Shown piece after piece: positions 12,972 through 63,958 of a stretch of 64,000 bases of DNA. The notes under the pieces are model-generated. The model had not been told where the DNA came from. It worked only from the letters and a program-made list of their open reading frames with translations, and ran no database searches. A program made the translations under genes and the position numbers. Origin of the DNA: Bacteriovoracaceae bacterium (GTDB lineage: Bacteria; Bdellovibrionota; Bacteriovoracia; Bacteriovoracales; Bacteriovoracaceae); NCBI GenBank assembly GCA_018649885.1, contig JABIHA010000066.1, positions 1-64,000 on the forward strand, written 5' to 3'. Each line of letters begins with the position of its first letter. Position 1 is the first letter of the stretch.

Positions 12972-13153
12972 ATCATCTGAGCTTTTGCGTAACCCAATTT
13001 TTTTTTTAGGTGAGCTCACAAACCTTGCTAATTTTGTAGACAGGGATGTACTTACAGTACAGTAGACACCCTATTAAGTCCCACCAAATTCATTAATCTT
13101 CTAAATTATCAAAGTTTAATAATAGGTCCCTCTTTTCCTTTTCAAGCTCCAAA

Positions 13154-13170
13154 TTGGCATCAGTATTGCA
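13154..13170 (+). promoter_or_regulatory. sigma54 -24/-12 promoter
   Basis: TTGGCATCAGTATTGCA, GG-N10-GC spacing, about 54 nt upstream of ATG 13224. Confidence 0.7.
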
Positions 13171-40043: not shown

Positions 40044-40148
40044 TATACTGATTCCAGTTTGGATTTCAAGTGAGTGGATGACGAAGAAGGCGTGTAACAC
40101 ACTCCGATGAGGAATACGCCACTTGAAATCCAAACTGGGATCAGTATA
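40044..40148 (+). repeat. 105-bp TATAC-ended palindromic element (MITE/ERIC-like or structured RNA), copy 1
   Basis: 29-bp inverted arms with one T-G pair around a 47-nt core; second copy at 43151-43255. Confidence 0.9.
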
Positions 40149-43150: not shown

Positions 43151-43255
43151 TATACTGAAGCGCTTCAGGCTTTCCAGTGGCGTGTTCCTCGTCGGAGTGT
43201 GACACACGCCTTCCTCGTCACCCACTCACTGGAAAACCTAAATCACTTCAGTATA
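43151..43255 (-). repeat. 105-bp TATAC-ended palindromic element, copy 2 (inverted relative to copy 1)
   Basis: Same length and ends; core 41/47 identical to copy 1 on the minus strand. Confidence 0.9.
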
Positions 43256-61783: not shown

Positions 61784-63958
61784 TTATACTGATCCCAGTT
61801 TGGGGTAAACCCTTTTGTAGCTCCCCTTGAGCCACTGCTTTATTTCTGAACAGTAATAAGAGGAAAATCTTCTATCTGAAGGACCTCCAATAAGCCGACT
61901 TTCCAAACCTTTTTCTGCCATATCAATAATAATCCTAATTGAAGGTCCAAAGCTTGTCTGACGTCCACCTGAATTGTATACCTGCCCTTGGTGAACACTT
62001 GATCTACCACCAGCGAGGGGTATTGGTCCCTTATTAAAACCAAATTTCCCTAGTGGACTATCTCCTAGTAATATATGTTTTAAAACTATTTGGTTTTTAT
62101 CACCCCATCTTTGTGGTACCCACTGAGCTTGTGCTGCCTCTAACGATTTCTTGAAAATATTTTTCCTTGATCTCTTCGCAAACCAAGTAGACTGCTCCTT
62201 TGCAATAATTGAATTAAAATTGCCAAAAAAATCTGCAAATATCCCCGTCTTCTCTAGCATATAATTAAAGACATCATCTCCAAAAACATCTCCAAAAATT
62301 TCACTCAAAAGGTTTTTTCGAATTAGCTCAAATAATGTCGGTGCACAAGAATCTGGATCATAACAAAAATCCCAGTCATTTAATAATTCTGGAAGACAAT
62401 CTTTCCCCAGATCAAAGGTAAAGAGGTCTAGTAACCATTTGGCTTCTAATGAAAAAAGATCACATTGAAGTTTTGCCATTGATTTCGTTGATATTTTTTC
62501 ACCTGAATCAATTATTTTTTTGAGAACGCTATGAATTTGTTGTGAGCGATATGGACCCATTGGCATTGTAATGGCCTTGCATGTGCCATATTGATTTAGA
62601 TCTTCATTTGCTGTAACAAAGTAACCCTCACTAGGGTTATAACTTTTTGGTAATGCCGAAGGTTTTTGAAAACCCTTCCAATCATTTTTTGGAGTCCAGC
62701 CTGGGAGCGGAATTGCGCCACTTAACCCAGATGATCTGAGTGGTGCTAGCCCAGACATTTGATAACCAATATTATCAGAAGTATCTGCCAGTACCCAGTT
62801 AAAGGAGATTTCAGATGTTTCAAAAACCTTCATTCCCTCTTCAACACTATCAACTCGAAATAAATCAAAAACCACTTTTAAAGAAGCTGTAGTAAATTCT
62901 GAACCACTCCACCTCGAACTTAGGTAATATCCTTCAGTGCCTGGGTCCCCAAGTAGAACTCCATGCTTGCTCTCATGGTATGTGGCCAGGTAATCCGAGT
63001 TCTTCTTTCTTTTGATGGTCTCAACTCTTTTACTAAATTCTTCCCATTCATTATCAGAGATTCTTCTTTTGCCATCTTGGCAATGCTCTATCCAAGTATC
63101 GATAGAATCTAAAAAGGTGTAAGTTGCTCCCCAGGAAACTTTGTTAGTTCTACCAATAACCAAACCTGGTAGGCCTGGAACAGTTGCTCCAACGGCATAT
63201 CTACCTGGTATTTCCATAATTACCTCGGCCCAAACATTAGGGAGTCTATTAATTTCAAGGTGAGGGTCATTACACAAAAATGGTTTTCCAGATTCAGTGT
63301 ATTTTCCAGAAACTACCCAATTATTTGAGGCCATGAGTGGCGTTAAAGCGCAATTCCATTTAACTTCATCAGGAATTATCCTATGAGATAAATTTACTTT
63401 CTTTAGTGCCTCCAAGTCTAATCCACCTAACAGCCCAGGTAGTAACTCTTCAAGTTGGTCACCGTTCACTCCACCTTGCACTAATTCCACAACTAGTTGC
63501 TCTAACTCACCTTGAGATTGAGCGAGTGTTAGATAGCCTATCATCTTGGCCATCATACTTGAGTCCTTGGGAGTCCATTTCTCATATTTATAACCTAACA
63601 TTTTGAGCTCCCACGGAAGATATTTCTCAAAACGTTTATTTATTCCCATGCAATAAGCTTGCATGCTTTCGAGATTTGTACCATCAAGTGATTCTCCGTC
63701 ATCACCCCAATTCATTCTTCTAAAAAATAAATCGACTTCAAGCATTTCCTCACTATCATTTAACAACTCACAGGCCCTTCCCTGACCTAAGATTCTCATC
63801 ATAAGAAGTTGCAAGCCGCGATCAAACGCGTGGGCAAAACCTAGTCCGTAACACATTCCCAATTCATTCTCTGCTAGAATGTGGGCGACACCATTTTCAT
63901 CTCTTTTAATTTCTACGTGTCCGTGCTCACCACTTATTTTAGTTTTCTTAAGAATCAA
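61784..63958 (-). CDS. Penicillin acylase family Ntn-hydrolase
   Basis: RDENGVAHI, GFAHAFDR and ASNNWV..NDPHL motifs; no obvious signal peptide. Confidence 0.9.
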   Translation of the reverse strand: MILKKTKISGEHGHVEIKRDENGVAHILAENELGMCYGLGFAHAFDRGLQLLMMRILGQGRACELLNDSEEMLEVDLFFRRMNWGDDGESLDGTNLESMQAYCMGINKRFEKYLPWELKMLGYKYEKWTPKDSSMMAKMIGYLTLAQSQGELEQLVVELVQGGVNGDQLEELLPGLLGGLDLEALKKVNLSHRIIPDEVKWNCALTPLMASNNWVVSGKYTESGKPFLCNDPHLEINRLPNVWAEVIMEIPGRYAVGATVPGLPGLVIGRTNKVSWGATYTFLDSIDTWIEHCQDGKRRISDNEWEEFSKRVETIKRKKNSDYLATYHESKHGVLLGDPGTEGYYLSSRWSGSEFTTASLKVVFDLFRVDSVEEGMKVFETSEISFNWVLADTSDNIGYQMSGLAPLRSSGLSGAIPLPGWTPKNDWKGFQKPSALPKSYNPSEGYFVTANEDLNQYGTCKAITMPMGPYRSQQIHSVLKKIIDSGEKISTKSMAKLQCDLFSLEAKWLLDLFTFDLGKDCLPELLNDWDFCYDPDSCAPTLFELIRKNLLSEIFGDVFGDDVFNYMLEKTGIFADFFGNFNSIIAKEQSTWFAKRSRKNIFKKSLEAAQAQWVPQRWGDKNQIVLKHILLGDSPLGKFGFNKGPIPLAGGRSSVHQGQVYNSGGRQTSFGPSIRIIIDMAEKGLESRLIGGPSDRRFSSYYCSEIKQWLKGSYKRVYPKLGSV

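What the first reader, a model, noticed from the sequence alone, without database searches (positions are those of the whole stretch)
40044..40148. 105-bp palindromic element family with covarying arms and a conserved core, twice in the fab operon
Seen: two elements of identical length (40044-40148 and 43151-43255, inverted), both TATACTGA...TCAGTATA. The 5' arms differ between copies at 8 of 29 positions, yet pairing is retained through compensatory changes (T-A to A-T, C-G to G-C, G-C to T-A, A-T to C-G). The 47-nt core is more conserved (41/47). It holds two GA(C/T)GA(G/A)GAA motifs facing each other across a GG.GTGT-loop-ACAC.CC hairpin. Established: ERIC and pneumococcal BOX repeats also have TATAC/GTATA ends and sit in intergenic DNA. 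Inference: an undescribed mobile repeat or structured RNA under selection for structure, with a protein-binding or catalytic symmetric internal loop.
Basis: partly seen in the sequence, partly recalled or inferred. Interest (0 to 1): 0.82.

Follow-up and report, generated by a model that had tools for sequence, protein, structure and literature searches.

The report
IS630 mini-transposon with one-strand GA ladder
The two 105-base palindromes are copies of a 21-copy, gene-less repeat whose ends match those of IS630 jumping genes in related bacteria, so it is likely an ordinary hitch-hiking mini-transposon, but its middle is predicted to fold on one strand only into a ladder of G·A pairs shared with similar repeats in several phyla, for a purpose that is inferred, not shown.

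Summary
In detail: 8/29 arm differences, core 41/47. The assembly has 21 full copies in two arm subfamilies. The arms are transposon ends. An intact IS630 element in a same-family genome has ends 24/28 and 25/28 identical to subfamily B; another has a right end 24/28 identical to A. The arm 'covariation' therefore likely reflects two IS630 end types plus arm-to-arm copying, not RNA selection. TA duplication is supported indirectly. No IS630 gene was found in this assembly.

The core is separate: three GA/GA tandems whose spacer pairs covary. It was not detected in the IS630 loci, but occurs in rods with unrelated ends in several phyla. It folds better on one strand (21/21 copies), with no link to host transcription (4:5) or replication (10:9) here. 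There is no Rfam match and no hammerhead core.

Verdict: a new MITE family of the ERIC/RUP kind. Earlier notes of this scan reported the same core on other DNA; the matched IS630 partner and an 18:2 orientation bias in Bdellovibrio-genus copies are added here. The core's function is open; my best guess is a fold selected on one single strand.

The parts
40044..40148 (+). Copy 1, arm subfamily A, including both terminal TA dinucleotides; the purine-rich, well-folding strand is the + strand, the same sense as rpmF and fabH
40044..40045 (.). Left TA, inferred target-site duplication
   Evidence: inferred from IS630 chemistry (PMC2170065) and two stop-codon insertions elsewhere in the genome
40046..40072 (+). 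Left terminal inverted repeat; conserved blocks TACTG and TTTCAAGT with a variable spacer
40073..40119 (+). 47-nt core: GA tandems at 40080-81, 40083-84, 40086-87 predicted to face GA at 40112-13, 40109-10, 40106-07, separated by single pairs (40082-40111 C-G; 40085-40108 A-T, G-C in other copies); apical hairpin 40089-40105
40120..40146 (+). Right terminal inverted repeat
40147..40148 (.). Right TA, inferred target-site duplication; 22 bases upstream of the fabH start codon
43151..43255 (-). Copy 2, arm subfamily B; begins 3 bases after the acpP stop and ends 25 bases before fabF; the well-folding strand is antisense to the operon
43180..43226 (-). Core of copy 2; carries the G-C form of both variable pairs (element positions 35-72 and 42-65)
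61785..61803 (+). 19-base remnant of a subfamily A arm, no partner arm nearby
   Evidence: (19/19, E 0.009)

Best explanation
The element is a 21-copy, non-coding palindromic repeat whose 28-base ends match those of intact IS630 insertion sequences in related bacteria, so it is likely a MITE moved by a borrowed IS630 transposase into TA sites, and its core is predicted to fold on one strand into a G·A ladder that is likely selected while that strand is single-stranded. Shown: copy number, end similarity, IS630 identity of the partner gene, covariation of the pairs between the GA tandems, one-strand bias. Inferred: TA duplication; mobilisation by IS630; that subfamilies A and B track two IS630 end types; that arms are homogenised by arm-to-arm templated copying. 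Committed guess for the core (about even odds on its own): G·A and G·T mismatches let one strand fold into a nearly complete rod while the duplex stays an interrupted palindrome. The element would then keep a folded single-strand form that helps its own copying or survival, most likely as DNA, without being a long perfect palindrome.
For: Ends: a motif made of the two conserved arm blocks led to a 1105-bp element in G241 (L410) bounded by such ends and encoding an IS630 transposase (NF033545, 216.5 bits, cut-off 100). Its ends are 24/28 and 25/28 identical to subfamily B. IS630 copies found by protein similarity alone have ends up to 24/28 (L438) and 23/28 (L457) identical to subfamily A; the null reached at most 20/28 in 1.86 million positions; three distant IS630-like loci (22-28% protein identity) reached only 15-18. 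TA: removing the copy and leaving one TA puts a stop codon exactly at the gene end in C81 and C134, where homologues also end. Arm copying: 5 private Watson-Crick double changes in the 21 copies against about 0.27 expected; 9 against 0.46 with the 168-bp family. Core: pair 42-65 is A-U 11, G-C 8, G-U 1 of 20 and both states occur in both arm subfamilies. In model-found relatives the spacer pairs flip between G-C and C-G while the GAs stay (G-C 54, C-G 12, A-U 2, unpaired 1 of 69). The GA/GA mismatches persist although arm copying would erase them (inference). One strand: 38 G·T against 4 A·C cells, 12 against 3 distinct events, p 0.035; three full IS630 end pairs show 3 against 4. The purine strand folds better in 21/21 copies as RNA and as DNA. 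No tie to host transcription (4 sense, 5 antisense among 9 tandem contexts) or inferred replication strand (10, 9, 2 unclear). None of 22 parsed apical loops is GNRA or UNCG.
Against: No IS630 transposase was found in G000 itself (assembly 92% complete, repeats may be collapsed). No empty allele was seen. The TA test rests on two genes, and C134 fits TATA as well; C54 fits no duplication as well; C99 reads oddly under TA. Fifteen of the 28 bases of the G241 right end were fixed by the search motif. ISY100 needs only its 24-bp ends on double-stranded DNA (PMC2170065 passages), so nothing known requires a folded strand. The DNA energy gap is small (3.8 kcal/mol against 10.7 as RNA), and none of the 22 loops is a DNA-type GNA loop either. 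The G·T bias is weaker in same-family relatives (24 G·T, 12 A·C, 42 other cells in 17 non-independent elements). Copies are related, so cell counts overstate. In Bdellovibrio-genus copies orientation is strongly biased, which a host-RNA effect explains equally well.
Confidence: 0.6

Rival explanations
1. IS630-type MITE whose core is selected as RNA: when co-transcribed, one orientation gives a rod that changes processing or stability of the host message, as reported for ERIC and Correia elements, and lineages that are tolerated or useful persist.
For: The strand gap is larger with RNA energies. Many copies abut stop codons. In five Bdellovibrio-genus genomes 18 of 27 hits have the gene on their 3' side pointing towards them. 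Orientation-dependent mRNA effects of ERIC and RNase III processing of Correia RNA are reviewed in PMC2229807 and PMC10969869 (passages).
Against: In G000 orientation is unrelated to transcription; the two copies in one operon are opposite. No RNA tetraloops in 22 apical loops. The 105-bp family is patchy among relatives (0 of 40 by BLAST), as expected of a parasite, not a host regulator.
Confidence: 0.22
2. Plain double-stranded cut-and-paste MITE; the core is an inherited spacer of the right length or bend between the ends, and its apparent fold is a relic or by-product.
For: IS630 chemistry needs only the ends. Templated copying can create paired changes without selection. Several G000 copies have lost ladder positions.
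Against: Spacer pairs take three forms between invariant GAs across phyla and across unrelated ends; copying between arms would convert GA/GA to GA/TC; G·T exceeds A·C on the same strand.
Confidence: 0.13
3. A catalytic or retro-mobile RNA: the ladder is an active site or a reverse-transcriptase substrate and the element spreads through RNA.
For: One-strand structure. Remnants of subfamily A resemble the 3' arm more often than the 5' arm (12 against 3, 2 unclear). One reverse transcriptase gene is in the genome.
Against: Ends match DDE transposon ends. No hammerhead core, no Rfam ribozyme match. Several remnants are collapsed hairpins with both termini, and the 3'/5' call rests mostly on one base that 3 of 17 full copies share in both arms. 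No copy of the element lies beside the RT or the three Y1 transposase genes.
Confidence: 0.05

Closest known systems
ERIC / IRU, ISFinder MITEEc1, and its relative MITEPlu5 of Photorhabdus
   Same: Short TA-flanked rod with TATAC-type ends; MITEPlu5 ends resemble IS630 elements (PMC6267812 section 13, read in full). Three ERIC copies fetched here fold better on their purine strand by 12-15 kcal/mol and carry an AAGG...AAC internal loop and a GA/GA tandem near the tip; L388 also has the TTTCAAGT block.
   Different: 127 against 105 bases; TTTCAAGT sits 7 bases nearer the end in ERIC; CCC-type against CTG terminus; one apical GA tandem against three. Models R1 and R2 did not detect the E. coli copy. 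Local alignment is weak: 1, 9 and 120 of 500 shuffles scored as well.
RUP (repeat unit of pneumococcus)
   Same: 107 bp, TA target, ends similar to IS630-Spn1 and proposed to be moved by it (PMC2229807 and PMC3049150 passages).
   Different: No RUP sequence was fetched, so sequence and core were not compared.
Correia / NEMIS elements of Neisseria
   Same: About 104-157 bp, 24-26 bp inverted ends, TA duplication, size classes with shared ends, folded transcripts (passages). G000 likewise has 105- and 168-bp classes with shared end blocks.
   Different: No Correia sequence was fetched; a core resemblance is recalled only and untested. IHF site and promoters were not found or not tested here (one search found no promoter-like site in the element).
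IS630 / ISY100 insertion sequences
   Same: Ends of the G241, G192 and G412 elements share the two conserved blocks; TA duplication is established for ISY100.
   Different: The autonomous elements are about 1105 bp, encode a transposase, have less complementary ends (69 of 84 positions) and no detectable ladder core.
Pneumococcal BOX element
   Same: Intergenic, folded, proposed to be moved by ISSpn2.

Membership tests
IS630-type MITE (RUP/ERIC kind) | Short, non-coding, dispersed multi-copy element | tested here: met
   21 full copies at distinct loci on 17 contigs; intergenic or at gene ends; only 35-codon frames
IS630-type MITE (RUP/ERIC kind) | Terminal inverted repeats | tested here: met
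   556 of 609 arm positions Watson-Crick, 38 more G·T
IS630-type MITE (RUP/ERIC kind) | Ends similar to an autonomous IS630 element | tested here: met
   24-25/28 (G241) and 23-24/28 (G192); null maximum 20/28
IS630-type MITE (RUP/ERIC kind) | TA target-site duplication | tested here: inconclusive
   Two stop-codon reconstructions favour TA; no empty allele seen
IS630-type MITE (RUP/ERIC kind) | Cognate transposase in the same genome | tested here: inconclusive
   None found in a 92% complete assembly; repeats may be unassembled or the partner lost
IS630-type MITE (RUP/ERIC kind) | Mobilisation in trans by the transposase | not testable with these tools
   Needs an assay
ERIC family | About 127 bp and alignable to ERIC along its length | tested here: not met
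   105 bp; R1 and R2 miss the E. coli copy in L297; weak local alignment to three copies
ERIC family | TATAC-type ends and one-strand rod with purine internal loops | tested here: met
   shows likeness of plan, not membership
Correia/NEMIS and BOX families | Sequence similarity to the family consensus | not tested
   No copy was fetched
Hammerhead ribozyme | CUGANGA and GAAA core at a three-way junction, invariant A14 (features from my own knowledge) | tested here: not met
   No CTGANGA on either strand of either copy; single rod; equivalent position covaries A-T/G-C
Any Rfam 15 family | Match at the gathering score | tested here: not met
   0 in the window; only sub-threshold matches, the best to miRNA hairpins; none over the element in 19 and 6 relative loci
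REP/REPIN with RAYT | Element copies flanking a Y1 transposase gene | tested here: not met
   Three Y1 genes in G000; none has the element or its arms in the flanks inspected

The most novel reading that the evidence does not exclude
Bacterial MITEs of several transposase families share a portable structural module, a purine ladder that folds on one strand only. The folded single strand, in which the two arms rebuild one double-stranded transposon end, is itself a transposase substrate and gives these elements a copy-gaining route that their parent IS elements lack. ERIC would be a distant member of this superfamily.
Probability: 0.2. Interest if true: 0.8.

Novelty: new member of a known kind. 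Interest (0 to 1): 0.4.

Why it matters
As a repeat family it is ordinary. Its value is as a test system. A 2007 review says there is no experimental support yet for how bacterial MITEs move (PMC2229807 passage). Here a 101-base element and an intact transposase with near-identical ends are both in hand, so one can ask directly whether the enzyme moves it and whether the folded core matters. If the one-strand ladder raises copy number or survival, it would explain why ERIC-like repeats in unrelated bacteria keep an elaborate fold that transposition is not known to need. It also warns that paired changes in palindrome arms can come from transposase end types and templated copying, and are not by themselves evidence of an RNA gene.

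Tried and rejected
Rfam: nothing at gathering score. BLAST of copy 1 against 40 relatives: 0; model R1: 1 of 150 phylum genomes; plasmids: no match for copy 1 or L120. Strict core pattern in metagenomes: 17 of 17 loci were the same organism. Viral contigs: 120 listed matches to a loose pattern, none with convincing arms; two stricter patterns and the IS630 protein gave 0. Empty sites: none among paralogues or in 8 of 20 listed runs laid; contigs drop rare variants. Expression: no RNA holder listed. Transposase between these ends in G000: none; IS1595 family none. A 1680-bp end pair in G005 proved to be two separate MITEs. No autonomous partner for the 157-bp G084 family by its end motif. 5'-truncation idea: 12:3 bias but confounded. 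Outward promoter TTGAAA-16-TATA: not picked by the scan, flanks not enriched for the needed bases. Lengths near multiples of 10.5 (105, 136, 146, 157, 168) were noted, but 107, 125, 150, 172, 174 and 184 also occur; dropped. Literature: nine searches found no description of this family or of the ladder core; subscription papers, ISFinder and the MITE catalogue of PMC11602168 (outline and abstract only, supplements not read) could still hold it.

Full report
OBSERVATION. The two elements are at 40044-40148 and 43151-43255, in opposite orientation, between rpmF and fabH and between acpP and fabF (gene names from my reading of the translations). No shuffle of 200 folds as well. Rfam has no match at gathering score.

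A REPEAT FAMILY. The window's assembly (G000, 5.45 Mb, 92% complete) holds 21 full copies and 4 partial ones by iterated nhmmer; a covariance model gives the same 21. Seventeen have the arms of copy 1 (A), four those of copy 2 (B). Copies are intergenic or at gene ends. Of 21, 4 are sense and 5 antisense within tandem genes, 8 lie between convergent and 4 between divergent genes (simple ORF calls). By contig GC skew 10 are on the leading strand, 9 on the lagging, 2 unclear. The genome also has rods of 168, 184, 146 and 136 bp with similar ends. The 168-bp class shares the end blocks TATACT and TTTCAAGT in the same register, and one 168-bp copy (C54) carries A-like arms.

THE ARMS ARE IS630 ENDS. 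I searched 150 same-family genomes with the two conserved arm blocks. Twenty-one had at least one match; the reversed control matched once in 7 genomes, so single hits may be chance. Among the loci inspected were sister MITEs of 105, 107, 127, 150, 172 and 174 bp, several hits without a partner end, and in G241 an end pair 1105 bp apart around a 336-residue gene. That gene is an IS630 transposase (216.5 bits, cut-off 100). Its ends are 24/28 and 25/28 identical to subfamily B. Fifteen positions of the right end were fixed by the query, but 11 of the 13 free ones also match. The protein found relatives in 20 of 150 family genomes. Of 13 loci examined, those about 50% identical have ends of 19-24/28, the best two (L438, L457) matching subfamily A; three distant ones reach 15-18; some loci are fragments with one end missing or poor (L437 left, L439, L440). 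The null never exceeded 20/28 in 1.86 million positions. So A and B arms resemble the ends of two IS630 lineages. G000 itself has no IS630 gene by family or protein search.

TARGET SITE. No empty allele turned up. Among 12 gene-end contexts reconstructed, two are informative. At C81, leaving one TA gives a stop right after the last codon, whereas leaving none or TATA gives 17 or 11 extra residues; one homologue ends nearby. At C134, leaving TA or TATA gives a stop and leaving none gives 38 extra residues; 11 homologues end within a few residues of the same point. C43 gives the same two-residue tail filled or empty. C54 and C99 do not decide. With the TA duplication shown for ISY100 (PMC2170065, passages) the element proper is probably 101 bp.

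WHY THE ARMS COVARY. A transposase needs both ends, so a change of end type changes both arms. In addition, single copies show private Watson-Crick double changes: 5 in the 21 copies against about 0.27 expected from independent changes, 9 against 0.46 with five 168-bp copies. This suggests one arm is copied from the other, a known behaviour of imperfect palindromes (my own knowledge). The strong covariation scores (13 of 41 pairs) come mostly from the A/B split and are not evidence of RNA selection.

THE CORE. On the purine strand the core is predicted to form three GA/GA tandems separated by single pairs, below a short hairpin. Pair 42-65 is A-U in 11, G-C in 8 and G-U in 1 of 20 copies (the 133-bp copy was left out), and both forms occur in both subfamilies. 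I kept 18 with paired arms, from records titled Bdellovibrio, Gemmatimonadota, Steroidobacteraceae, Nitrospinota, Saccharibacteria, Liptonbacteria and Proteobacteria, and three without a shown title. Their core letters were fixed by the query. A model built from them (R2) found 21 of 150 phylum genomes, 0 of 23 in the window's family, and three same-family G005 copies only weakly. In 29 model-found rows the parser placed a ladder in 26: the inner pair was G-C 13, C-G 8, unpaired or misparsed 5. One search gives G-C 54, C-G 12, A-U 2, other 1 of 69, on an alignment fitted to the model that includes short chance matches. R2 found no core in the IS630 loci, so the core is not a remnant of the partner IS.

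ONE STRAND. Arm mismatches are G·T in 38 cells and A·C in 4, or 12 against 3 distinct events (p 0.035). Three complete IS630 end pairs show 3 against 4; 17 related MITEs show 24 against 12. The purine strand folds better in 21 of 21 copies, by 10.7 kcal/mol as RNA and 3.8 as DNA. None of 22 parsed apical loops is GNRA, UNCG or GNA. Three ERIC copies show the same asymmetry and a similar loop plan, though R1 and R2 missed the one E. coli copy tested. In five complete Bdellovibrio-genus genomes 23 of 27 hits have the purine strand on the lagging strand, 18 of 20 after merging orthologues by flanking proteins; replichores were taken from four skew samples per genome. Most of these also lie antisense to a gene ending at their 3' side, so replication and transcription cannot be told apart there.

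MECHANISM. Best reading: an IS630-mobilised MITE (about 0.9 on its own) with a core kept because one strand folds (likely), most plausibly as single-stranded DNA in the element's own copying or survival (about even odds). The argument is inference. G·A and G·T are mismatches that are stable on one strand and unstable (T·C, A·C) on the other, so the element can be a nearly complete rod when single-stranded and an interrupted palindrome when double-stranded. The indifference to host transcription in G000, the lack of RNA tetraloops and the use of the same core with unrelated ends fit this. Against it: ISY100 needs only its ends, the DNA energy gap is small, and the Bdellovibrio bias fits a host-RNA effect too. 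A hammerhead-type ribozyme is excluded.

KNOWN AND NEW. IS630-like ends are in print for RUP (PMC2229807 and PMC3049150, passages) and for the ERIC relative MITEPlu5 (PMC6267812, section 13 read whole; supplements not read). Compensatory changes in a folded repeat are reported for bcr1 (PMC3184786, passages). PMC2759123 and PMC10969869 were seen as passages, PMC11602168 as outline and abstract. Nine searches found no account of this family or of the ladder. Earlier notes of this scan describe the same core superfamily on other DNA; they are unchecked, I reuse the word 'ladder' from one, and I had noted the three tandems before reading them. Verdict: new member of a known kind, interest 0.4; the open question is what the one-strand core does.

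Noticed in passing
G093, G119, G145, G150, G155 (loci L298-L324, L502-L519): Ladder-core rods in five complete Bdellovibrio-genus genomes are strongly oriented: purine strand lagging in 23 of 27 hits (18 of 20 independent loci), mostly antisense to a gene ending 0-10 bases from their 3' side; the four leading-strand hits are beside tuf and tRNA genes. Arms differ from copy to copy at nearly constant length.
   Followed up: partly
G000:C17:32897-33065, C122:8103, C47:33099, C128:24076, C105:89241, C54:7338: A 168-169 bp rod family with the same end blocks and an apical GAA/GA loop; arm mismatches are G·T with no A·C in all six copies; C54 has A-type arms on this core.
   Followed up: partly
G000:C83:73098-73281, C72:188633-188816, C20:145495-145640, C105:75545-75680: Further rods of 184, 146 and 136 bp with TA-type ends and repeated purine internal loops on one strand.
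   Followed up: partly
G000:C27:21658, C81:8805, C128:2768, C3:18750, C105:76588, C134:8134: Collapsed remnants of 18-50 bp that keep both termini, consistent with deletion between short direct repeats in the hairpin.
   Followed up: partly
G000:C143:9468-9717, C36:20319-20734, C82:18823-19238: A 250-416 bp element with TATACGTTG ends and GGGCAA-type repeats in the arms; a different family.
   Followed up: no
L469-L480 (G412): A 125-bp multi-copy MITE with ERIC-like TATACCC ends, the TTTCAAGT block at the register of the window's element and a superfamily-type core, in a genome that also has IS630 ends at contig breaks; a possible link between ERIC and this family.
   Followed up: partly
L309 and other G084 loci: A 157-bp family with GGCTCC ends and the ladder core, 16 model hits, nearly all at contig ends; no autonomous partner found by its end motif.
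   Followed up: partly
L393, L398, L415, L416, L419: Tandem or nested short hairpins built from these end sequences without a ladder core in G180, G334, G188 and G418.
   Followed up: no
L056, L057 (G000:C65, C118): Y1 (RAYT-like) transposase genes flanked by strand-skewed short tandem repeats, unrelated to this element.
   Followed up: no
L059:1273-2589 (G000:C141): A lone 438-residue reverse transcriptase gene next to a CBS-like gene; class not determined.
   Followed up: no
window 13148-13166: Weak 17/19 resemblance to an arm (E 4.7); probably chance or an old remnant.
   Followed up: partly
L096:245-346 and L100: Ladder-core rods sit between 23S and 5S rRNA genes in a Nitrospinota record and between tRNA genes in a Bdellovibrio record.
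   Followed up: no
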